DNA of 64,000 nucleotides from a phage, in the sequence record OZ335964.1, one strand, 5' to 3'. The notes under the pieces were generated by a model, which saw only the letters and a list, made by a program, of their open reading frames with translations, was not told the origin of the DNA and did not search any database. The first letter of the stretch is position 1. Each line of letters opens with the position of its first letter. Positions 23,391-49,255 of the stretch are shown piece by piece. Position numbers and translations under genes: made by a program.

Positions 23391-23429
23391 GGGAGACTCC
23401 CATTATAGAGAATCTCCCTTGTATGTCAA
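23391..23429 (-). promoter_or_regulatory. early promoter/stem-loop cassette (variant)
   Basis: Minus strand reads TTGACA-tacaa-GGGAGATTCTC-TATAAT-GGGAGTCTCCC. Confidence 0.5.
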
Positions 23430-23989
23430 CTAAAATTTAAAGATGCAAACTCCCCGTGATGAATTTTTGCATATTCATCATATGCTCTAGCGGCTTCCTC
23501 CTGAGTAGCAAACGATCCTATGTATTTTCTGTATCCGTTTATCCTTATTTGTGCTTGCCACGGTCTTTTGCTAGATCCTTTGCGATGAGTAACACCATTA
23601 TATATGCTCGTGCACCCGTCCATTTTCTTTTTATTGTACATGTTTTGTTGTTGTGTTGCCTCCCGTAAATTTGGTGGATTGTTGTTTTCTGGATTCCCGT
23701 CTATGTGGTCTATTACCTTAACCTGTGTTCCATATTCAAGAAACCAGACAATTCTATGTACAAGATATGTAGATGTTCTCTTTTTAACCTTATTGTAAAC
23801 ATCTATTGCCAAATGACCGTAATTTAACTTTTTTGTTTTTACTTTATCACCGACTCGGTAGAAATATCCCTCTGGTAGACCATTAAAAGACGGACTATTT
23901 GTTTTGTGATATAGAACACCTTCCGTGTGTTCAAATCTGCGTTTTAATTCCTCTTGAATTTCAGTATTCCAAAATTTCGCACTTTTCAT
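23426..23989 (-). CDS. HNH homing endonuclease (HNH_3 + AP2 domain)
   Basis: IDHIDGNPENNNPPNLREATQQQN HNH motif; C-terminal AP2-like GVTHRKGSSKRPWQAQIRINGYRKYIGSFATQEEAARAYDEYA; ATG 1 nt after the topo II large-subunit stop. Confidence 0.8.
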   Translation of the reverse strand: MKSAKFWNTEIQEELKRRFEHTEGVLYHKTNSPSFNGLPEGYFYRVGDKVKTKKLNYGHLAIDVYNKVKKRTSTYLVHRIVWFLEYGTQVKVIDHIDGNPENNNPPNLREATQQQNMYNKKKMDGCTSIYNGVTHRKGSSKRPWQAQIRINGYRKYIGSFATQEEAARAYDEYAKIHHGEFASLNFS

Positions 23990-30324: not shown

Positions 30325-31254
30325 ATGAACTATAAACGTATTTATGATAACCTGATTGAACGTGCTAAGACTAGAACTATCGACGGATATACAGAAAAGC
30401 ATCACATCATACCACGTTGTATGAATGGAAGCGATGATGATAGCAATCTAGTTAGACTCACCCCAGAGGAACATTACATTGCTCACCTTCTGTTAGTTAA
30501 GATTTACCCAGATAACAGTAAATTGGTTTATGCTGCAAATATGATGTGCGTTTCTTCTGATTCACATAATGGAGAAAGACAGTCAAATAAACGTCATGGT
30601 TGGTTGCGTAGAAAAATGGCAGAGGCACATAGTAAAAGAATCCGCGATAGAATGGAGAACGATCCTGAATATAGAGCTAAGGTTTCGGAATGGGCTAGAA
30701 AAATGGGTAAAGCCATGAAAGGAGTTAAGCGAGGACCGGAATTTAGCAGAAAGTTGGCAGAAAGAAACAGAAATACCGTGATGAAAGAAGAAACTAAACG
30801 TAAAATCGGGGAAGCCAACAAAGGAAGGAAACGTACAGAAGAATATAAAAGAAAACATAGTGAGCGGTATAAGGGTGAAGGTAATCCGATGTATGGTAAA
30901 CGAGGAAAGGAACATCCGGCATATGGTACTAAACCGTGGAACAACCAAACATCATTTGTTGAGCAGAAAGCATGGTGGCGGTTCGCTGGCATGTTCTATG
31001 ACTGGTATCAGATGGATATTGACCGTGGGAAACATAAACGCCACGGTCATAAAAGAATGCTTGATGAATTGGGTTTTGTTGGTTGGCGAGAAAAAGAGCC
31101 AGCCGCAGCAAGACGATCAATTGAAATGTTTGCTAAAGGCTGGAATCCTTATGAAGACCAAGAATGGTTAGATTATATTAATACCCGCTTTCCAAACGAC
31201 GATAGTTTTCCGCGTTCTTCAACATATACAAAACAAACAAATCCTTTGCAGTAA
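30325..31254 (+). CDS. HNH homing endonuclease with NUMOD3-like repeats (opposite strand)
   Basis: EKHHIIPRCMNGSDDDSNLVRLTPEEHYIAH HNH motif; repeated GxxNxxYGK motifs; AAGGAG SD; only plus-strand gene in the early region. Confidence 0.8.
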   Translation: MNYKRIYDNLIERAKTRTIDGYTEKHHIIPRCMNGSDDDSNLVRLTPEEHYIAHLLLVKIYPDNSKLVYAANMMCVSSDSHNGERQSNKRHGWLRRKMAEAHSKRIRDRMENDPEYRAKVSEWARKMGKAMKGVKRGPEFSRKLAERNRNTVMKEETKRKIGEANKGRKRTEEYKRKHSERYKGEGNPMYGKRGKEHPAYGTKPWNNQTSFVEQKAWWRFAGMFYDWYQMDIDRGKHKRHGHKRMLDELGFVGWREKEPAAARRSIEMFAKGWNPYEDQEWLDYINTRFPNDDSFPRSSTYTKQTNPLQ

Positions 31255-32746: not shown

Positions 32747-33310
32747 TCACTGTATATTTTTACTTCTTTGCTTTCCTATCCAGATCCGTCTAACTGTTTC
32801 CGCATTAACATCATATATTTTTGCGATCTTTGCCGCAGATCCGGTTCCTTTTAGAGTTTTGATTTCTTCAATCTGATCTTTGGTTAATTTAGCCCAATGG
32901 TGTGCATCACCATAACACGAACTCAGACCGTGTGTCAATGCATGAATCTGATTTTCTGATTGTGTAACCCATTCAAGATTATATAGGTCATGGTTTCTTT
33001 TGTTTCCATCGATATGATTAACAAACGGCAAATTGTTTACGTTTGGTATAAACGCTTCTGCTTTTGCTCTGTGTATGTATATCGATAGAGATTTAACCCT
33101 AGACCCTGAACTAGTTTTATTACCGTAAGGATCTCTGATTCTTGCTACGGCGTATCCACCGCTTCTTCCGGCTACAGATTCTCTATAAATCTTTCCTGTT
33201 TTCTTGTTTCTAATGCGTCCATATGAGCTAACCTCGTAGCCTGGCATTTCGACGCCCATATAAACAAGGTCTTTCCATTCTTCTGGATGTTCGTCACAAT
33301 ACCGTTTCAT
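32747..33310 (-). CDS. HNH homing endonuclease (NUMOD4 + HNH_3 + C-terminal HTH)
   Basis: GYEVSSYGRIRN NUMOD4 motif; VNHIDGNKRNHDLYNLEWVTQSEN HNH; C-terminal HTH AAKIAKIYDVNAETVRRI. Confidence 0.8.
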   Translation of the reverse strand: MKRYCDEHPEEWKDLVYMGVEMPGYEVSSYGRIRNKKTGKIYRESVAGRSGGYAVARIRDPYGNKTSSGSRVKSLSIYIHRAKAEAFIPNVNNLPFVNHIDGNKRNHDLYNLEWVTQSENQIHALTHGLSSCYGDAHHWAKLTKDQIEEIKTLKGTGSAAKIAKIYDVNAETVRRIWIGKQRSKNIQ

Positions 33311-36722: not shown

Positions 36723-37793
36723 TTATGCTAACATATCTTCGATTTCTTTGTCAACTGCTTCGTCGCTGATCACTTGCCCCAGCTTATAATGATCGTTGAT
36801 TGCTTCGTTAAACTTATCGTTTGTCAGAAGTGGTTTCCAGAACTCAATGCTATTGGTTTCTTTAGCACGGAACTTGCGTTCTTCGGTTTCCATCTCTCCG
36901 GTCTCCGTATTCAGGATTGAACGAGAATACCAGCCGTTTGACGGTTTCACTACCCAACCTAACTCTACAGCCAACTCCAGCAAACCGGAATAAGGATCGA
37001 TGCCACCGCTAAACGTTACGCTAATCGGGAACTTAGATTTTTCTTTAACGGTTCGTGATTTTTCCGCATTCAGGATAAAATCATAGCCAGTAATTTCGGT
37101 TCCTTCTTTCTGCTGACGACGACCAATAATGAAAACTTCATTGGCTGAATACATCGCGCCCGTACCGCCGGACATAACGGTCTTACTAAACATTTCTTGC
37201 GTTTCGTAAGTGTGGTTAATAGCGATGCACGGGATATCATTCATAGTCAGATATGGCGTCACCATACGGAACAAGCCTTTAAGTGCTTTAGCTCGCGTCA
37301 TATCCTGTGCGGATTTCTCATTAATCGCGTCTTCAACTTCTTTTTTACTTGCTAAGTTACCGATTGAGTCAATAAAGATGATCACTTTATCTTCACGGGT
37401 AATTTGCTCAAGCTGGTTCATGATTTCAAATTTAAGTTCTTCGATGTTCTTGATTGGAACATGCACCACGCGATCAGGATCTACACCCATAGATTCAAGA
37501 TAAGCGGATGTAATACCGAACTCAGAATCAAAGAACAAACACGCCGCATCAGGATTCTGTTTCATGTATGCACTAACGCAAGTTAATCCCATGTTTGATT
37601 TAAAGTGCTTAGACGGACCAGCAAAGAAAATCAGACCAGATTGAAAGCCTTTTTTAAGATCACCGGAAAACGCAATATTCAGCATCGGGATCTTAGTGCG
37701 AGTATTTGTTTTTTCGTTAAAGAAGCTGGATTTAGACAGTACCGCAGTAGTTTTCAGGGTAGAGTTCTTTTTCAGTTTTTCCAGTACAGACAT
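36723..37793 (-). CDS. uvsX: UvsX recombinase (RecA-like)
   Basis: 356 aa; Walker A GPSKHFKS and RecA-fold blocks; AGAGGT SD. Confidence 0.9.
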   Translation of the reverse strand: MSVLEKLKKNSTLKTTAVLSKSSFFNEKTNTRTKIPMLNIAFSGDLKKGFQSGLIFFAGPSKHFKSNMGLTCVSAYMKQNPDAACLFFDSEFGITSAYLESMGVDPDRVVHVPIKNIEELKFEIMNQLEQITREDKVIIFIDSIGNLASKKEVEDAINEKSAQDMTRAKALKGLFRMVTPYLTMNDIPCIAINHTYETQEMFSKTVMSGGTGAMYSANEVFIIGRRQQKEGTEITGYDFILNAEKSRTVKEKSKFPISVTFSGGIDPYSGLLELAVELGWVVKPSNGWYSRSILNTETGEMETEERKFRAKETNSIEFWKPLLTNDKFNEAINDHYKLGQVISDEAVDKEIEDMLA

Positions 37794-37804
37794 TATTAAT
37801 ACCT

Positions 37805-37993
37805 CTATTCAGTTAATCCGTAATACTTTAATTGCTTCATTGTTATTCGATCTTTGTAGTGCTCTTGAATTAACTTTTTCATCGCATCAACATCGATCGT
37901 CACAAATACTTCGTTGCTGTGATTTCCGTGAACTTTCTTGAAATGCTCTATGCCTTCCTCACGTTCACGTTTAATCTTTTCAATGTCTCTCAT
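37805..37993 (-). CDS. hypothetical protein (62 aa)
   Basis: Track ORF starts at GTG; first ATG is M14; only gene in the uvsX-43 gap. Confidence 0.4.
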   Translation of the reverse strand: MRDIEKIKREREEGIEHFKKVHGNHSNEVFVTIDVDAMKKLIQEHYKDRITMKQLKYYGLTE

Positions 37994-38054
37994 AGTATAT
38001 TTCTCACGTTGGCGGGTATCGTCACCCAACACCCGCCATTATACACACTTTATC

Positions 38055-39239
38055 TTAAATGTCAAACAGGTCAGTCAGAGAAGCAACTTTTTCATATTGC
38101 AGCTTTGCAGCCGTGGTAATGTTCTCCAGTGGTTTGACGAAAGTCTTATTAAACAACAAAGGCCAGTCTAACCACTTTAACACCTCGCTTTCAATTTCTG
38201 GAGGAATACGAGTACCGGACAACCAACCAAAACAGATTTCTCCAAACGGATTTCGATCTTTAAGCGGTACGATCATAACCTTCTCGCCTTCACGAATCGG
38301 ATCTAGTCCGAATTTTCGAGCATTACGATTATAACACAATACACTCTTAACCGCATACGGACAACCCTTAATCGGATACCCGTTTGAATCGCTGTATTTC
38401 TGTAGGTTGTTTGCAGATGATACCGCAGCAACCTCAAGATAGTCAAGTTTTCTAAACTCTTGCTCAAAAATACCGTAGTATTCCTGTAGCGATTCTTCCC
38501 CTTCCTGCAACATACGGCGAATACATTCTTTCAGTGATTTCTGACATGCTTTAGGGGTGGAGCTACGTTGCGTTTCCAAGCCCATGATTTTTAGCTTAGG
38601 TTCAGCAAAGCGCGTTCCTTCCATATCCCAAACATTAAGAGCATAACGCTTTTTGCCAGTCCAGAATCCACCGATACCCGCAGATTTCAACGGAGGACCA
38701 GCAATTGCCTCACGGTCCATAAACATCAAGTGCTCATAGTTATTCATGTACTCGCATAACTCGCGATATCCCTTGTCGATAATAGGTTCCATCCGATGTT
38801 TACCGAAATTATCAAGGAAGTCAACAAGTTTTTCGGTATCGTCGAAACGGTCTTCCCCGCCAACCTTATCAACAACATTGTTAACCAGCACATAAACGGA
38901 GTCAGTATCACAATAACGAACATATGCAAAATCAGTTGTTCCGCAAAGCTCGTTTAAGTATTCGTTAATCTTACGCTCAATCCATCTAATAGCGACCTGT
39001 CCAAATAGCGTAATCGCACTAGCATTACGCAGATCGTATAGGCGGAAACGTGGATTCCCAAGCGCGCCATAAAGGCTATTAATCAATACCTTACGAGAAA
39101 GCTGGTTTGTATTACATAAAACCGATTCGTTTTGACAATAGGTTAATAACTGCTTTAACTCATCTACAGACATTGACTCGAATTGTTCTAGCTGTTCGTC
39201 GGTGAAGTCTGAACGAACATCAATATTTTTAATATCCAA
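38055..39239 (-). CDS. 43: DNA polymerase gp43, C-terminal fragment (palm motifs B and C, thumb)
   Basis: Contains KILINSLYGALG (motif B) and YCDTDSVYV (motif C); begins at a TTG preceded by strong GGGGGTGA SD; no in-frame ATG nearby. Confidence 0.85.
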   Translation of the reverse strand: MDIKNIDVRSDFTDEQLEQFESMSVDELKQLLTYCQNESVLCNTNQLSRKVLINSLYGALGNPRFRLYDLRNASAITLFGQVAIRWIERKINEYLNELCGTTDFAYVRYCDTDSVYVLVNNVVDKVGGEDRFDDTEKLVDFLDNFGKHRMEPIIDKGYRELCEYMNNYEHLMFMDREAIAGPPLKSAGIGGFWTGKKRYALNVWDMEGTRFAEPKLKIMGLETQRSSTPKACQKSLKECIRRMLQEGEESLQEYYGIFEQEFRKLDYLEVAAVSSANNLQKYSDSNGYPIKGCPYAVKSVLCYNRNARKFGLDPIREGEKVMIVPLKDRNPFGEICFGWLSGTRIPPEIESEVLKWLDWPLLFNKTFVKPLENITTAAKLQYEKVASLTDLFDI

Positions 39240-39816
39240 TATTTCACCCCCATCAACGATTAATGTATAATTGCATATTCGCCATGATATTGTACTATAT
39301 GCCTATTATACGCGTCAATAGCTTCTTCTTCCGAATCAAAGTATCCTATATGATGCGTCTCGTGGTTTACTGTTATTCGAACACGCCATTTATCATAACC
39401 TCTCACCTTTGAGATTCCTTTGTATTTTGAAGTCCTTCCCTCAATAGAAATTGATCCATTGCTATTAATCTGATTTTCGTTATGAGAAGCCGCCCTTAAA
39501 TTTTCAATTCTATTATTGGTTCGAACTCTATCAACATGATCTATTTGAGTTTTTCCATTAATAGGTCTTTCCTTGCTAGGACAATGACCATGAAACATAT
39601 GGTATATCACACGATGAATTTTTCTAGCTTTGCCATCTATCCAAACTTTGCAATATCCTTGCTTGTCAGGAAACCTCCCGATCACCTGACCTTTTTGTGC
39701 TTGACTGCTGGTAGATATCTTTCTAATCAATATTCCATCGTCATATTGAAATAATCTGTGATAGAGTTCATAAAGTCTCTTATCTTCGTCATTGTAATGA
39801 ATAACTTGATACATCA
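39240..39816 (-). mobile_element. HNH endonuclease cassette interrupting gene 43
   Basis: Free-standing HNH ORF lies exactly between the two halves of an otherwise collinear B-family polymerase. Confidence 0.7.
39260..39814 (-). CDS. HNH homing endonuclease (HNH_3 + AP2 domain) inside gene 43
   Basis: QIDHVDRVRTNNRIENLRAASHNEN HNH motif; AP2-like KYKGISKVRGYDKWRVRI; ATG overlaps the stop of the polymerase N-fragment (TGATG). Confidence 0.85.
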   Translation of the reverse strand: MYQVIHYNDEDKRLYELYHRLFQYDDGILIRKISTSSQAQKGQVIGRFPDKQGYCKVWIDGKARKIHRVIYHMFHGHCPSKERPINGKTQIDHVDRVRTNNRIENLRAASHNENQINSNGSISIEGRTSKYKGISKVRGYDKWRVRITVNHETHHIGYFDSEEEAIDAYNRHIVQYHGEYAIIH

Positions 39817-41301
39817 CAACTCACCTCGCTTCTTCAATATTTCTTTTATTCGTTCAGCATTACGGTCACACGCCAACATCATGTTTTTGTACTGCTTACG
39901 CTGATCGAATACTTTCTTGATCTCAATCGGTATAATTCCATGAATATCTTTACGATACATCCAACCGTTAGGAGAACACGAGTATTCATCGCTAGGTCGT
40001 GGTGCTGTCTTATTAACATAATCATCAATTGGCGCGGCTTCAAACGATCCAGCGATTGTTTCCGGCGAAATGTTAACCTGTCGAATAATAGATGGGTACA
40101 GACTTGTTAAGTCAAAGCTCATCATCCAACGGTAAGCATTAGGTACTGGCTCTTTTACGAATGCGCCCGGATAAGTCTGCTTAGGCTGTATCTTATTTTC
40201 CGGTACTACTTTACCCTCAGCTTTCAGAGATCCGAAGATAATAGCATCCCATACTTTCATCGGGTTATAAACATGGTTAAATTTAATCTTTGCATAGAAA
40301 CATAGACTATACACAAGATCGATAAATCCACGCTTTTTATCAATCGCCAGCACACGATCAACGTCGCCGATGTTATAATCGATGTAAAGTTGATGGTTAT
40401 CATCACGCAATTTCTTTAACGGACCATCATAATCAACCTTACCGATTCCTGTCTCATATTCAGCAACATAATCTAATGCATATGTTGGTTGAGTCGTAAA
40501 GCTAAATTTCTTGTATAAGTCAATGTAGTCAAGGCTTTCGATCCCCATGATCGTAAATGCTTCACGCTCGTTGCCAAAATCATCCTGTGAGATTCGGGAT
40601 TTAATCTTACCGCACGGGCTTAGACGGTTAGCGGTTCTACTTCCGAACTTATTACTGATACGTTTAATGATATATGGAATATCGAATGTTTCTGTGTTCC
40701 AGCCAGTGAAACCAACGGGTCGGTTTTCCTCAAAGAATCGGATGTATTCTAACAGCAATTCATCTTCTGTATCATAGACGTTATAAACAACGCGCTCTAC
40801 AATATCAGGTCGAAGAATAGACTTTCTTGCTTCCCAGATTTCACCGTTTTTTCCTTTCAAATCAAACACAAAGAAACGATCATGTACGGAATCATAATGC
40901 GTAATTGCATCGATAGGATATTTCGCTTCTTCTGGTTTAGGAAATTCCGGTGCAGTGACCTCGATATCAACCCATGCTACACGGATTTTATTTCGGTCAT
41001 ATCGAATCTCGCCTTTATATGTATCGGACAGATAGGAGATGATAAAATCATCCATCCCTAGCGCCTCTTGCCCCATTTCCCCCATCTTTTTACGCCATTT
41101 GTTGGCCTCGTTCATAGATGGGAATTTTTTAGCAATGCAAGGCTTGCCATAGATATCTTTATAATTTGTAACCATACCAGGCGCGGCATGATGAAATAAA
41201 GTTGGCGTATATTCAACGTAACGCTCTTGTTCTTGTCCAGCATCATCAATATAACGCTCGTAGATCTTATCACCTACTCGCTCACATGACAGAAAATACA
41301 T
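39814..41301 (-). CDS. 43: DNA polymerase gp43, N-terminal fragment (3'-5' exonuclease + motif A)
   Basis: Exo I AWVDIEVT and polymerase motif A DLTSLYPSII; start set to M11 with GAAGGAG SD (track start is GTG). Confidence 0.85.
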   Translation of the reverse strand: MYFLSCERVGDKIYERYIDDAGQEQERYVEYTPTLFHHAAPGMVTNYKDIYGKPCIAKKFPSMNEANKWRKKMGEMGQEALGMDDFIISYLSDTYKGEIRYDRNKIRVAWVDIEVTAPEFPKPEEAKYPIDAITHYDSVHDRFFVFDLKGKNGEIWEARKSILRPDIVERVVYNVYDTEDELLLEYIRFFEENRPVGFTGWNTETFDIPYIIKRISNKFGSRTANRLSPCGKIKSRISQDDFGNEREAFTIMGIESLDYIDLYKKFSFTTQPTYALDYVAEYETGIGKVDYDGPLKKLRDDNHQLYIDYNIGDVDRVLAIDKKRGFIDLVYSLCFYAKIKFNHVYNPMKVWDAIIFGSLKAEGKVVPENKIQPKQTYPGAFVKEPVPNAYRWMMSFDLTSLYPSIIRQVNISPETIAGSFEAAPIDDYVNKTAPRPSDEYSCSPNGWMYRKDIHGIIPIEIKKVFDQRKQYKNMMLACDRNAERIKEILKKRGEL

Positions 41302-41383
41302 AATATAAACTCCTTCACTTACGAAAGACACTCATTATAGGGGAATCGACTTAGTTTGTCAATACCCCTATCCCATCAGTATC

Positions 41384-41746
41384 TTATCGCCCGATCTGAT
41401 ATTTCTCGATCAGCGTCCACTCTTCTTTCTGTTTAAAAGACAGTACACGGAAATTATTAACTTCTGTAGTTTCAAAATCACTATCAATCAGGGTGCATAG
41501 ATTCCACTGCGCAAGAAGTTTTGCAATATTATTACGGCGCAATTCATCTTCCCACGTCATCTTAACACTACGACCATCTAATTTCAACAACTCCTTGAAA
41601 TGAACGATGTAATAGCGCCCCTTCTTCTGGAGAATATGACAAGACTGATACAGTGTCTTGTCTCGATTGTTGGCAATGCCGCAGCGGGTTAAAGTCTCCT
41701 TAATTTTAAGGAAGTTTTCAGGATTAATCAAATTAATTTCAATCAT
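41384..41746 (-). CDS. regA: RegA translational repressor
   Basis: 120 aa; near-identical blocks to T4 RegA (CHILQKKG, YYIVHFKE, NNFRVISFKQK); AAGGTGG SD. Confidence 0.85.
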   Translation of the reverse strand: MIEINLINPENFLKIKETLTRCGIANNRDKTLYQSCHILQKKGRYYIVHFKELLKLDGRSVKMTWEDELRRNNIAKLLAQWNLCTLIDSDFETTEVNNFRVLSFKQKEEWTLIEKYQIGR

Positions 41747-41747
41747 T

Positions 41748-42326
41748 TTACCACCTTTCTATAATCTTTTTAAGTCGTTTCCTTTCTGTCTGATTCTTAG
41801 TAACACCCGCCAAAAGTTCATCGGTCGCATACGGTTTAATGTGCTTCAATAACTTGTCCATATATCCCTTTTCATTAGCCAAATCGAGATAAAATCGGGC
41901 GTCATCCATATTTACACAATATGCTTTCGCCACTGCCATTAAAACCAATTTTTGGTCTAATTCTTCTGTTAGTTTAGCCCATTTACCGTATCGTTTCCCC
42001 TTAGAAATACTCTGTAAGAGATAATCAAAATGCATTTGATCTGGGAGGCCATGACCGATTAAATTCATCACATACGCGCTATATAGGCAATCTGCGTGCT
42101 GGGAAAGAGCGGTATTAATCCATCTCTGATTGTATGCAGAATTATTCCCAACATTAACGCGCTGTTTATCTAAGGTGATATGATCCATCAGAGCAAATAA
42201 TGCATTGTCGGTTTTCTCGGTGAATGTGTCCGCTAGTTCAGACACTTTTTCCCAATCACGAGAGCGCCATGCAATTTCATGCTCGTTTAATTGTGTATCA
42301 TCTTCACCGAAAAATTGACCTAACAT
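41748..42326 (-). CDS. 62: clamp loader small subunit gp62 (by synteny and size)
   Basis: 192 aa between gp44 and regA; TAATG overlap with the gp44 stop. Confidence 0.65.
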   Translation of the reverse strand: MLGQFFGEDDTQLNEHEIAWRSRDWEKVSELADTFTEKTDNALFALMDHITLDKQRVNVGNNSAYNQRWINTALSQHADCLYSAYVMNLIGHGLPDQMHFDYLLQSISKGKRYGKWAKLTEELDQKLVLMAVAKAYCVNMDDARFYLDLANEKGYMDKLLKHIKPYATDELLAGVTKNQTERKRLKKIIERW

Positions 42327-48179: not shown

Positions 48180-49205
48180 CTAACTTTTTGCGCTATTTAC
48201 TTCGGCTAAAAGTTCATCAGAAATACGCTTGACCGCCGCAAGTTCTTCTGGTTCTAGGTTTTGTTCTTCCAGATATTCATAGACCATCTGAATAGTGCTT
48301 TTAACTTCAATAACACCTGTTTCCTGTGATGCGCTACTCTCCAGCTTATGGACCACTTTTAGCTTGTGCACAACGGCCTCTAACGCGCTTTCTAACTTAG
48401 TTAACCCATTATCAGCGACCGTTGCGATAAGACGCACACTAAGCCCCTTAAAGCGTTCTACATCGATTTTATCATCTGACGGGTAAGTAATACGCACATG
48501 ATAAGTTTTGTCATTCTGAATAAACTCTTTTTTGTGTGTATCGGTATCGAATACCCAAAAACCACGCGGATCGTTTTCGTCACCCGCCGTTAGTGTGTAT
48601 GGTGTACCAATATATGTTACGTTACCGCCATCGCTGATAGTATGAAAGTGACCGGAAAACACTTCACGGTATTTCTTGAGGAAGTCCGCGCTATAACCTT
48701 CGGATTTTAGCCCTTTATAGAAATAGTAACCGGACAATTCCCAATGGCCTACACAATATTCGCTGAATGAGTTTTGAATAAACTCTAAAATCTCTGATTT
48801 ATTGTCATCACAAAACCACGGGAACAGATCAAATGATACACCATCAAAGGTAACTGTTTCCGGCTTATCAATGACCTTAATGCAATCATACTGGCTTAAC
48901 ACTTCACGCGGTGCGTTAGGCTGGATCTTATTGCGCTTAAACATATCATGATTCCCGACCGTGATATAACAAGTAATACCAGCCTCTTCCAGTAACGGGA
49001 TGACCTTAGTACGGTTAAATTTCATGGTTTCATGAGTAATTGCTTTTCGGCAATCAAACCAATCCCCTGTTTGAATCCATGTCTTAATATTATGCTCTTT
49101 GGAGTATTCAACCGCTTTCTTGATGGTATCAAGAATATACTCATGCACCCACGGATCATCGCCACCGATACCAGTATGCAGATCACCTAAAAGCAAAATT
49201 TTCAT
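48180..49205 (-). CDS. 47: recombination endonuclease subunit gp47 (Mre11-like phosphoesterase)
   Basis: Calcineurin-like phosphoesterase motifs LLLGDLH, GNHD, GHWE, GHFH; strong collinearity with T4 gp47. Confidence 0.85.
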   Translation of the reverse strand: MKILLLGDLHTGIGGDDPWVHEYILDTIKKAVEYSKEHNIKTWIQTGDWFDCRKAITHETMKFNRTKVIPLLEEAGITCYITVGNHDMFKRNKIQPNAPREVLSQYDCIKVIDKPETVTFDGVSFDLFPWFCDDNKSEILEFIQNSFSEYCVGHWELSGYYFYKGLKSEGYSADFLKKYREVFSGHFHTISDGGNVTYIGTPYTLTAGDENDPRGFWVFDTDTHKKEFIQNDKTYHVRITYPSDDKIDVERFKGLSVRLIATVADNGLTKLESALEAVVHKLKVVHKLESSASQETGVIEVKSTIQMVYEYLEEQNLEPEELAAVKRISDELLAEVNSAKS

Positions 49206-49255
49206 AGTCTCTTCCTCTCTTCGTTTTCGATGCTCTCACTATATCACAGAAAAAT

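What the first reader, a model, noticed from the sequence alone, without database searches (positions are those of the whole stretch)
38055..41301. DNA polymerase gene 43 split by an HNH endonuclease ORF
Exonuclease motifs and polymerase motif A are in the 39814-41301 ORF; motifs B and C are in the 38055-39239 ORF. A 184-aa HNH/AP2 endonuclease ORF lies exactly between them. Its ATG overlaps the N-fragment stop (TGATG), and the C-fragment has no nearby ATG but a strong GGGGGTGA SD five nt before a TTG codon. This implies two polypeptides made by coupled translation rather than an intron or intein. Split gp43 has been described in some T4-related phages; the TTG initiation is worth confirming.
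Basis: partly seen in the sequence, partly recalled or inferred. Interest (0 to 1): 0.6.

Follow-up and report, generated by a model that had tools for sequence, protein, structure and literature searches.

The report
Homing-endonuclease-split phage DNA polymerase gene
In this RB49-like coliphage the essential DNA polymerase gene is cut into two separately translated genes by a mobile HNH endonuclease gene that arrived with foreign flanking sequence; this arrangement is already known in other T4-like phages, so it is a clean new example and not a new kind of thing.

Summary
The window is a Krischvirus (RB49-like) genome. Gene 43 is present as 43A (495 aa), a 184-aa HNH-AP2 homing endonuclease gene, and 43B (394 aa). 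Together the two fragments cover the whole polymerase. The break lies at the fingers tip, at the position homologous to the experimentally studied 43A/43B split of Aeromonas phages 44RR and 25. The insert is not an intron: Rfam finds none here, yet finds group I introns in gene 43 of JSE, MIZ4, phage 25 and three metagenomic relatives. It is not an intein or split intein either, because of the frame and because the lengths add up. Two other contigs carry the same cassette. There 43B starts ATG-TTA-GAT, while the window reads ATA-TTG-GAT, which supports TTG initiation after loss of the ancestral ATG. About 1.1 kb around the endonuclease gene (codons ~402-580) is foreign relative to RB49, while the rest is 97-100% identical. 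That points to acquisition by homing with co-conversion. In sister contigs the same slot holds a GIY-YIG endonuclease related to that of phage 25. This is a new member of a known kind, of moderate interest.

The parts
41334..41362 (-). Sigma-70-type early promoter upstream of 43A (TTGACA-17-TATAAT), presumably driving one transcript across 43A, the endonuclease gene and 43B
   Evidence: 12/12 consensus match. Nearly identical to the annotated RB49 early promoter. No TATAAATA late promoter occurs in 38900-41420.
39814..41301 (-). Cistron 43A: N-terminal, exonuclease and N-terminal palm domains (motif A at 40090-40113) plus the first fingers helix; 495 aa; stop TGA 39816-39814
   Evidence: Aligns to RB69 gp43 residues 4-504, E 1e-187. 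97-100% nt identity to RB49 up to codon ~400.
39260..39814 (-). Free-standing HNH-AP2 homing endonuclease gene, 184 aa. The ATG overlaps the 43A stop (TGATG). HNH_3 domain about 39470-39622; AP2-like DNA-binding domain about 39269-39439
   Evidence: Pfam HNH_3 E 3e-13. Profile hits to AP2/ERF structures (7wq5, E 3e-9) and I-HmuI (1u3e, E 0.006). dN/dS 0.04-0.05 against two orthologs. Absent from all 64 Krischvirus records.
39240..39259 (-). 20-nt intercistronic spacer with Shine-Dalgarno GGGGGTGA (39244-39251) and the relic ATA (39240-39242) of the ancestral ATG start
   Evidence: L004 has GGAGGTGAG-ATG-TTA and L005 has GAGGATGTGAA-ATG-TTA at the homologous place. RNA folding shows no significant structure.
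38055..39239 (-). Cistron 43B: second fingers helix with motif B (39066-39092), C-terminal palm with motif C (38898-38909), and thumb; 394 aa; predicted start TTG 39237-39239
   Evidence: Aligns to RB69 gp43 residues 515-902, E 8e-163. The TTG is the first ATG/GTG/TTG in the open frame. The AF2 model starts with helices at residues 14-22 and 25-60 (moderate confidence).
38985..40098 (-). Foreign (co-conversion) tract: gene-43 codons ~402-580 plus the endonuclease gene. Diverged from RB49 (40-88% nt) but shared with L004 (89-98%)
   Evidence: Codon-by-codon differences and 20-codon identity profiles. Identity to RB49 returns to 93-100% from codon 581.

Best explanation
Gene 43 of this Krischvirus is a genuine two-cistron ('fractured') polymerase gene. 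A free-standing HNH-AP2 homing endonuclease gene sits in the loop at the tip of the fingers domain. The upstream piece (43A) ends at a TGA that overlaps the endonuclease ATG. The downstream piece (43B) is translated on its own from a TTG placed 7 nt after a G-rich Shine-Dalgarno sequence. That TTG replaces an ancestral ATG one codon upstream, which has mutated to ATA. All three ORFs are probably read from the early gene-43 transcript. 43A and 43B then associate non-covalently to rebuild the polymerase; the two antiparallel fingers helices and the palm, with motif A on 43A and motifs B and C on 43B, must come together. The cassette was not created in place. It was imported by endonuclease-driven double-strand-break repair (intron-less homing) from a diverged T4-like phage whose gene 43 was already split at this loop. 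About 280 bp of donor sequence upstream and about 255 bp downstream came with it. Shown here: the anatomy, absence of an intron or intein, homology of the break point, purifying selection, the mosaic tract and the ATG-to-ATA/TTA-to-TTG change. Inferred: use of TTG, translational coupling, subunit assembly and activity, endonuclease activity and its target.
For: Anatomy and domains. The two fragments cover RB69 gp43 residues 4-504 and 515-902, and their lengths add to 889 aa against 892 aa in RB49. Rfam finds no intron in the window or L004, with positive controls in the same gene: L005 64.8 bits, JSE 42.9, MIZ4 32.8, phage 25 64.2, L014 50.8. An independent assembly (L004, another Krischvirus) has the same 495/184/395-aa layout, and L005 carries the same cassette. 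43B begins ATG-TTA-GAT in both, against ATA-TTG-GAT here; the endonuclease ATG overlaps the 43A stop in all three. dN/dS is 0.04-0.05 for the endonuclease and 0.02-0.13 for the junction-flanking polymerase segments. The break is homologous to the annotated 43A/43B split of 44RR (498+391 aa) and phage 25, whose fragments co-purify and are active according to PMC2988022, citing Petrov 2010. Many stand-alone 43B-type proteins of 383-398 aa exist in Aeromonas, Acinetobacter, Stenotrophomonas and Vibrio phages, one of them named 'split DNA polymerase'. The mosaic tract spans codons ~402-580, and its right edge differs in L015 (~codon 640). The cassette is absent from 64 sequenced Krischviruses.
Against: There is no direct evidence for the proteins, their start sites or their activity. 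The ATA relic lies in frame 4 nt after GGGGGTG and cannot be formally excluded as a weak initiator. A weak sigma-70-like match inside the endonuclease gene (39318-39289, 10/12) could give 43B its own transcript, but such matches occur at chance frequency (15 found, 11.4 expected). The donor lineage has not been found: the tract's best matches in sequenced phages are only ~40-44% identical, so import is inferred from the mosaic pattern alone. Synonymous divergence between the window and L004 is far higher in the endonuclease gene (dS 1.28) than in its flanks (0.14-0.34). A single recent acquisition does not explain that.
Confidence: 0.85

Rival explanations
1. The insert is a group I (or other self-splicing) intron carrying an endonuclease ORF, so a single full-length gp43 is made from spliced mRNA.
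For: Group I introns do occur in gene 43 of close relatives, at motif A in JSE, MIZ4, L005 and L014 and at motif B in phage 25 (PMC2993671). The insert RNA folds slightly better than shuffles (z -2.3).
Against: There is no Intron_gpI hit at E<=10 in the window or in L004, while five true introns in the same gene were detected. 555 of the 574 inserted nt are endonuclease ORF under strong purifying selection, leaving 20 nt of non-coding sequence. Both polymerase pieces carry their own stop and start, and no segment of the protein is missing. The z-score test is uninformative, because a genuine intron scored only -1.7.
Confidence: 0.03
2. The two halves are joined after translation by an intein or split intein (the 'fractured gene' arrangement of Dassa et al. 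2009).
For: Fractured phage genes with an endonuclease gene between split-intein halves exist (PMC2677866). Some gp43 homologs in the protein search carry intein domains (PF14890 in P0031, P0092, P0100, P0118, P0125).
Against: The endonuclease ORF is in a different frame from 43A. Pfam finds no intein domain in 43A or 43B. 495+394 aa equals the contiguous length minus 3 aa. Only about 5 and 4 residues lie beyond the RB69 alignment at the two new termini, whereas split-intein halves need about 100 and 35 aa.
Confidence: 0.01
3. 43B does not start at the TTG. It starts at the relic ATA, at the internal ATG (codon 23), or by re-initiation of ribosomes terminating at the endonuclease stop 20 nt upstream without a defined initiator preference.
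For: ATA occupies the exact position of the ancestral ATG. The endonuclease stop is close enough for re-initiation.
Against: ATA is a very poor initiator in E. coli and TTG is a recognised one (established knowledge). The TTG arises from a TTA-to-TTG change next to the lost ATG, a pattern expected for compensation. The spacing from the G-run is 7 nt to TTG and 4 nt to ATA. The ATG at codon 23 has no Shine-Dalgarno sequence, and using it would delete 22 residues that align to RB69 and to other 43B proteins.
Confidence: 0.1
4. The endonuclease gene inserted de novo into a contiguous Krischvirus gene 43 and created the split on the spot, and the flanks then diverged quickly to adapt to the new termini.
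For: Dassa et al. propose that an invading endonuclease gene supplies the stop and start signals (PMC2677866). The non-synonymous changes are concentrated next to the break.
Against: The diverged tract also contains about 90 codons with almost only synonymous changes (codons 402-483, 81-88% nt identity with a nearly unchanged protein). Local adaptation cannot explain that. The tract edges are sharp and differ between loci. The same tail and head sequences flank an unrelated GIY-YIG endonuclease in L014/L015, so the split allele is older than either endonuclease association.
Confidence: 0.07
5. Sequencing or assembly artefact, or a dead polymerase gene.
For: Only the consensus sequence is available. 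Several metagenomic contigs break near this polymorphic region.
Against: The same architecture was assembled independently in L004 and L005. All three ORFs are intact and under purifying selection. The gene is essential in T4-type phages (established knowledge).
Confidence: 0.02

Closest known systems
Split gene 43 (43A/43B) of Aeromonas salmonicida phages 44RR2.8t/31 and 25 (Petrov, Ratnayaka and Karam 2010, J Mol Biol 395:457; summarised in PMC2988022 and PMC2993671)
   Same: Same enzyme and the same break point in the fingers-tip loop: 498+391 aa against 495+394 aa. Phage 25 also has a free-standing endonuclease gene between the cistrons, and 43B follows it closely. The fragments are reported to co-purify and polymerise DNA.
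   Different: The endonuclease here is HNH-AP2, not GIY-YIG (seg-like). There is no 44-49-nt untranslated spacer with a hairpin after 43A, because the endonuclease ATG overlaps the 43A stop. There is no intron in 43B. The host lineage (Krischvirus) normally has a contiguous gene. The start codon is TTG. The junction sequences are no closer to 44RR/25 (~31%) than to RB49 (~31%).
GIY-YIG-split gene 43 in Krischvirus-like metagenomic contigs
   Same: Same phage group, the same break, and related 43A tail (NAERVKEILKKRRGE against NAERIKEILKKRGEL) and 43B head (56% identity).
   Different: The slot holds a GIY-YIG endonuclease homologous to that of phage 25 (E 9e-50). 43B starts at an ATG overlapping the endonuclease stop. 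A group I intron sits upstream at motif A. The foreign tract is longer, reaching about codon 640.
nrdA split by mobE in Aeromonas phage Aeh1 (Friedrich et al. 2007; Crona et al. 2011, PMC3045599), and T4 topoisomerase genes 39/60 with mobA
   Same: A free-standing HNH endonuclease gene fractures an essential replication or nucleotide-metabolism gene into two polypeptides that reassemble (PMC2988022).
   Different: A different host gene. In Aeh1, sequences derived from the mobile element serve as interaction domains. Here the fragments have essentially no extra residues.
Group I introns in gene 43 of JSE-type Krischviruses
   Same: Mobile insertions in the same gene of the same phage genus. GenBank likewise annotates two 'DNA polymerase' CDSs.
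   Different: They lie at motif A (between codons 401 and 402), not at the fingers tip. They match the Rfam group I model, and PMC2993671 regards them as introns, so a single polypeptide is expected.
HNH-AP2 homing endonucleases of RB49-type phages (for example RB49p040; counted as a class in Table 5 of PMC2993671)
   Same: The same two-domain architecture and size (184 aa), and the same free-standing, sporadically distributed lifestyle.
   Different: Only about 34% identical to RB49p040 and at most 46% to any endonuclease in sequenced phages. The insertion site differs, lying inside an essential gene and not between genes.

Membership tests
Two-cistron (43A/43B) split PolB of T4-like phages | Break located in the fingers-tip loop, homologous to that of 44RR/25 | tested here: met
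   43A ends and 43B begins within about 3 residues of the 44RR termini in a joint alignment. The break maps to RB69 residues ~505-514.
Two-cistron (43A/43B) split PolB of T4-like phages | Upstream cistron has its own stop; downstream cistron has its own ribosome-binding site and initiator | tested here: met
   TGA at 39816-39814; GGGGGTGA plus TTG at 39239; homologs have an ATG one codon upstream.
Two-cistron (43A/43B) split PolB of T4-like phages | Both fragments maintained by purifying selection, with all catalytic motifs intact | tested here: met
   dN/dS 0.02-0.13. Exo I-III and motif A are in 43A; motifs B and C are in 43B.
Two-cistron (43A/43B) split PolB of T4-like phages | The two polypeptides form an active polymerase complex | not testable with these tools
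   Shown only for the 44RR/25 proteins in the literature (PMC2988022, citing Petrov 2010).
Free-standing homing endonuclease gene (HNH-AP2 class) | HNH nuclease domain | tested here: met
   Pfam HNH_3, 49.6 bits against a cut-off of 24.8; weak profile match to I-HmuI 1u3e.
Free-standing homing endonuclease gene (HNH-AP2 class) | AP2-type DNA-binding domain | tested here: met
   A profile of four orthologs hits AP2/ERF structures 7wq5 (E 3e-9) and 7et4 (E 9e-4) over residues ~103-182. Single-sequence Pfam AP2 was not detected.
Free-standing homing endonuclease gene (HNH-AP2 class) | Sporadic presence among close relatives, with replaced (co-converted) flanks | tested here: met
   Absent from 64 Krischvirus records. 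The mosaic tract spans codons ~402-580.
Free-standing homing endonuclease gene (HNH-AP2 class) | Site-specific cleavage of the endonuclease-free allele and super-Mendelian inheritance in mixed infection | not testable with these tools
   Needs an in vitro cleavage assay and phage crosses.
Group I intron | Conserved catalytic core (P3-P9) recognisable by the Rfam RF00028 model | tested here: not met
   No hit at E<=10 in window 37500-42000. The same model scores 33-65 bits on five introns in gene 43 of relatives.
Group I intron | Exons join to restore one continuous reading frame, with sequence otherwise missing | tested here: not met
   Nothing is missing: the fragments abut on the RB69 and RB49 alignments, and each has its own stop or start.
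Intein / split-intein fractured gene | In-frame intein blocks, or N- and C-intein halves appended to the fragments | tested here: not met
   Different frame; no intein Pfam hit; 889 aa against 892 aa in total.

The most novel reading that the evidence does not exclude
The element is an actively homing, self-contained 'gene-splitting module'. In one repair event it converts a contiguous essential polymerase gene into a two-subunit enzyme, carrying the matched fingers-tip sequences that let the halves reassemble. The intercistronic slot it creates then serves as a reusable landing pad in which unrelated endonuclease genes (HNH-AP2 here, GIY-YIG in sister phages) replace one another. The ATG-to-ATA plus TTA-to-TTG change would be an adaptive retuning of the 43B:43A ratio. 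The tract edge at the motif-A intron site would reflect interplay (collaborative homing or immunity) between this endonuclease and the neighbouring group I intron, as proposed for phage 25.
Probability: 0.25. Interest if true: 0.55.

Novelty: new member of a known kind. Interest (0 to 1): 0.38.

Why it matters
Split gp43 and endonuclease-fractured genes are established, so this changes no concept. Its value is as a natural near-isogenic pair. The phage is ~97% identical to RB49-type phages that carry a contiguous gene 43, yet it makes the polymerase in two pieces. That allows a direct test of what fragmentation costs a replicative polymerase (fidelity, processivity, autoregulation, subunit stoichiometry with a TTG start). 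It also allows homing of an HNH-AP2 endonuclease into an essential gene to be tested in E. coli, a tractable host. For annotation it separates two things that databases both label as 'DNA polymerase (x2)': true splits like this one, and intron-interrupted genes of the JSE/MIZ4 type.

Tried and rejected
(1) MFE z-score as an intron test: the insert gave z -2.3 and a genuine intron gave -1.7, so it does not discriminate and I did not use it. (2) A hairpin covering the endonuclease AUG was re-tested in the three orthologs. It is weak (z -0.85, +0.49, -0.41) and is not predicted in L005, so I dropped it as a regulatory element. (3) Derivation of the junction tract from the Aeromonas 44RR/25 lineage: the tail motif 'IL..RG' looked similar, but head identity is ~31%, the same as to RB49, so I rejected it. 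(4) Search for the donor or further copies: blastn and tblastn against 50,697 phage records, IMG/VR and JGI metagenomes found no closer relative. Only Logan/ENA contigs L004 and L005 carry the cassette. (5) Exact-sequence look-ups of the window's own endonuclease and 43A found nothing on record. (7) Internal promoter for 43B: there is a 10/12 match at 39318-39289, but promoter-like matches are at chance level. (8) The open-access literature did not yield the RB69 domain boundaries. The AF2 model of 43B alone is only moderate (pLDDT 66.9). (9) The list contains no full-length (~890-aa) gp43 at all, so it cannot be used to estimate how common split forms are relative to contiguous ones.
Full report
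**1. What is there**

On the minus strand the window carries the T4-type replication cluster gp44, gp62, regA, gene 43, a small ORF and uvsX. Gene 43 is in three parts:
- 43A runs 41301-39814 (495 aa).
- An ORF of 184 aa runs 39814-39260. Its ATG shares one base with the 43A stop (TGATG).
- After a 20-nt spacer, 43B runs 39239-38055 (394 aa) and starts at TTG.

Pfam assigns DNA_pol_B_exo1 plus the first third of DNA_pol_B to 43A, HNH_3 to the middle ORF, and DNA_pol_B to 43B. The only corrections are minor. GGGGGTGA ends 4 nt before the TTG. An out-of-frame ATG lies 14 nt upstream. A GTG precedes the endonuclease ATG.

**2. Which genome**

Megablast places the window in Krischvirus (RB49-like coliphages), 95-96% identical to 64 records. 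All of them lack the insert, and coverage stops at 80%. RB49 gene 43 is one 892-aa ORF. The insert has no DNA relative in 50,697 phage records.

**3. Is it an intron, an intein or a true split?**

Intron:
- Rfam at E<=10 finds no group I or II intron in 37500-42000.
- The same scan is demonstrably sensitive in this gene. It finds group I introns in L005 (64.8 bits), JSE (42.9), MIZ4 (32.8), phage 25 (64.2) and L014 (50.8).
- The JSE- and MIZ4-type 'DNA polymerase x2' annotations are therefore intron cases at motif A (between codons 401 and 402), as Petrov et al. suspected for JSE (PMC2993671). The window's case is at codon 495 and is different.
- 555 of the 574 inserted bases are a protein-coding ORF with dN/dS 0.04-0.05.

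Intein or split intein:
- The endonuclease ORF is out of frame with 43A.
- 495+394 = 889 aa against 892 aa.
- The fragments align to RB69 gp43 residues 4-504 and 515-902, so no polymerase sequence is missing and none is extra. That excludes inteins and the split-intein 'fractured gene' layout (PMC2677866).

An MFE z-score comparison was uninformative.

**4. Position of the break**

RB69 residues ~505-514 lie in the middle of the fingers domain. That domain spans residues 469-572 as two long antiparallel helices; this is my recollection of Wang et al. 1997 and was not retrievable here. An AF2 model of 43B, of moderate confidence, begins with a short unstructured stretch and then helices at 14-22 and 25-60, the latter carrying motif B.

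The annotated split genes of Aeromonas phages 44RR (498 aa + 49-nt spacer + 391 aa) and 25 (43A, GIY-YIG endonuclease, 43B with intron) break in the same loop, within about 3 residues. Those fragments are reported to co-purify and to be active (PMC2988022, citing Petrov 2010).

A protein search with 43B returned dozens of stand-alone proteins of 383-398 aa starting at this position. They come from Aeromonas, Acinetobacter (one named 'split DNA polymerase'), Stenotrophomonas and Vibrio phages. The break is therefore the canonical 43A/43B site. That list lacks full-length gp43 entirely, so it says nothing about relative frequency.

**5. The start of 43B**

Two public contigs carry orthologs of the endonuclease: P0001 (89%) and P0002 (82%). 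L004 is another Krischvirus with the same 495/184/395-aa layout. L005 has the same cassette. The sequences at the 43B start are:
- L004: GGAGGTGAG ATG TTA GAT ATT AAA
- L005: GAGGATGTGAA ATG TTA GAT ATG AAA
- window: GGGGGTGAA ATA TTG GAT ATT AAA

The ancestral ATG is now ATA, and the next codon has changed from TTA to TTG. The TTG is the first ATG/GTG/TTG in the open frame, and it sits 7 nt after the G-run. The next in-frame ATG (codon 23) lacks a Shine-Dalgarno sequence, and using it would remove conserved residues. The mRNA around the site is unstructured. I therefore regard TTG initiation as likely (about 0.8); ATA is the residual alternative.

The endonuclease ATG overlaps the 43A stop in all three loci (TGATG or TAATG). 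That is compatible with translational coupling but does not prove it. A 12/12 early promoter precedes 43A, and no late promoter motif or convincing internal promoter was found.

**6. The endonuclease**

It has an HNH_3 domain. A C-terminal AP2-type domain is detected with a four-sequence profile against solved AP2/ERF structures (E 3e-9), and there is a weak match to I-HmuI. This is the HNH-AP2 class already counted in RB49-type genomes (PMC2993671, Table 5).

Its best matches in sequenced phages are at most 46% identical and sit at other loci. RB49's own HNH-AP2 gene is 34% identical.

**7. How it got there**

Against RB49, nucleotide differences are sparse over most of gene 43 but dense from codon ~402 to 580. 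They are mostly synonymous at the edges (81-88% nt identity with a nearly unchanged protein) and non-synonymous next to the break (39-51% nt identity). Identity then returns abruptly to 93-100% from codon 581.

L004 shares the tract. In L015 the foreign tract runs to about codon 640. Sharp-edged replacement tracts of variable length, centred on an endonuclease gene, are the classical footprint of homing with co-conversion. Local adaptation cannot explain them.

In contigs L014 and L015, also Krischvirus-like, the same slot holds a GIY-YIG endonuclease homologous to that of phage 25 (E 9e-50). It is flanked by a closely related 43A tail and a 56%-identical 43B head. The split allele is therefore older than its association with either endonuclease, and the slot has been re-used.

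The donor lineage is unsampled. The tract's best matches among sequenced phages are ~40-44% identical, and it is no closer to 44RR/25 than to RB49.

**8. Unexplained**

- The left edge of the tract in the window and L004 falls within 1-3 codons of the motif-A intron insertion site. Both keep the intron-less form of the upstream exon end and show four consecutive synonymous changes just downstream.
- Synonymous divergence between the window and L004 is 1.28 in the endonuclease gene against 0.14-0.34 in its flanks.

**9. Verdict**

The mechanism has three parts:
- Two polypeptides are made from one operon.
- A free-standing HNH-AP2 homing endonuclease gene was acquired together with a pre-split fingers-tip allele by gene conversion.
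- 43B initiates at a TTG that compensates for a lost ATG.

This is a new member of a known kind (endonuclease-fractured gp43). New details are the endonuclease family at this site, the host lineage, the start-codon shift and the clear mosaic evidence. Interest is moderate (0.38).

Noticed in passing
L005:395-660 (ENA ERZ27235451 k119_3354); also L014:1-196: An ORF-less group I intron (Rfam 64.8 and 50.8 bits) interrupts polymerase motif A (DLTSL|YPS) about 280 nt upstream of the endonuclease-occupied split. This is an arrangement like that of phage 25 (intron plus free-standing endonuclease plus split), except that the intron is in 43A and not in 43B.
   Followed up: partly
L002:1886-2360 (JSE) and L003:1903-3010 (MIZ4): GenBank annotates two 'DNA polymerase' CDSs in JSE, MIZ4/5, kvi, JK32, Cognac, G5211 and PTE-Eco09. 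The interruption is at motif A (codon 401/402) and matches the group I intron model (42.9 and 32.8 bits). In MIZ4 the intron carries a 274-aa HNH ORF. These are intron-interrupted genes, not split genes.
   Followed up: partly
L014:528-1196 and L015:328-996: Krischvirus-like contigs in which the same 43A/43B slot holds a 222-aa GIY-YIG endonuclease. It is homologous to the phage 25 endonuclease (35% identity, E 9e-50). 43B starts at an ATG overlapping the endonuclease stop (ATGA).
   Followed up: yes
window 40090-40098 (gene-43 codons 402-404): The left boundary of the foreign tract in the window and L004 coincides, within 1-3 codons, with the motif-A intron insertion site. Intron-bearing alleles share a distinctive exon-1 end (CTT ACT TCC CTA), whereas the window keeps the intron-less form (TTA ACA AGT CTG).
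   Followed up: partly
window 39260-39814 compared with L004:5001-5555: Synonymous divergence between the two Krischvirus endonuclease alleles (dS 1.28) is 4-9 times that of the flanking polymerase gene (0.14-0.34), although dN/dS is only 0.05. The endonuclease gene seems to have a different history, or a different synonymous rate, from its immediate flanks.
   Followed up: no
window 23426-23989 (-), 30325-31254 (+), 32747-33310 (-): Three further free-standing endonuclease genes are absent from RB49. One is HNH_3+AP2 (187 aa), directly downstream of gene 39. One is NUMOD3/HNH (309 aa), on the opposite strand between modB and gene 56. One is NUMOD4+HNH_3 (187 aa), after gene 61. The first is only 30% identical to the gene-43 endonuclease.
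   Followed up: partly
window ~49202-49206: RB49's own HNH-AP2 endonuclease gene (RB49p040, between gene 47 and a-gt.4) is cleanly absent from the window.
   Followed up: no
L006-L009:4001-4531: Other Krischvirus contigs carry a 176-aa HNH-AP2 endonuclease gene (P0003, 46% identical to the one studied) between regA and a contiguous gene 43. This is a third kind of mobile insertion at this locus.
   Followed up: no
window 39189-39253 (-): An out-of-frame ATG (39253) just after the endonuclease stop opens a 21-codon ORF that overlaps the 43B start. It has no Shine-Dalgarno sequence and is probably meaningless.
   Followed up: no
one search hit list (P0031, P0092, P0100, P0118, P0125): Some gp43 C-terminal homologs in metagenomes carry intein domains (PF14890). 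So gene 43 of T4-like phages hosts introns, inteins and free-standing endonuclease genes in different lineages.
   Followed up: no
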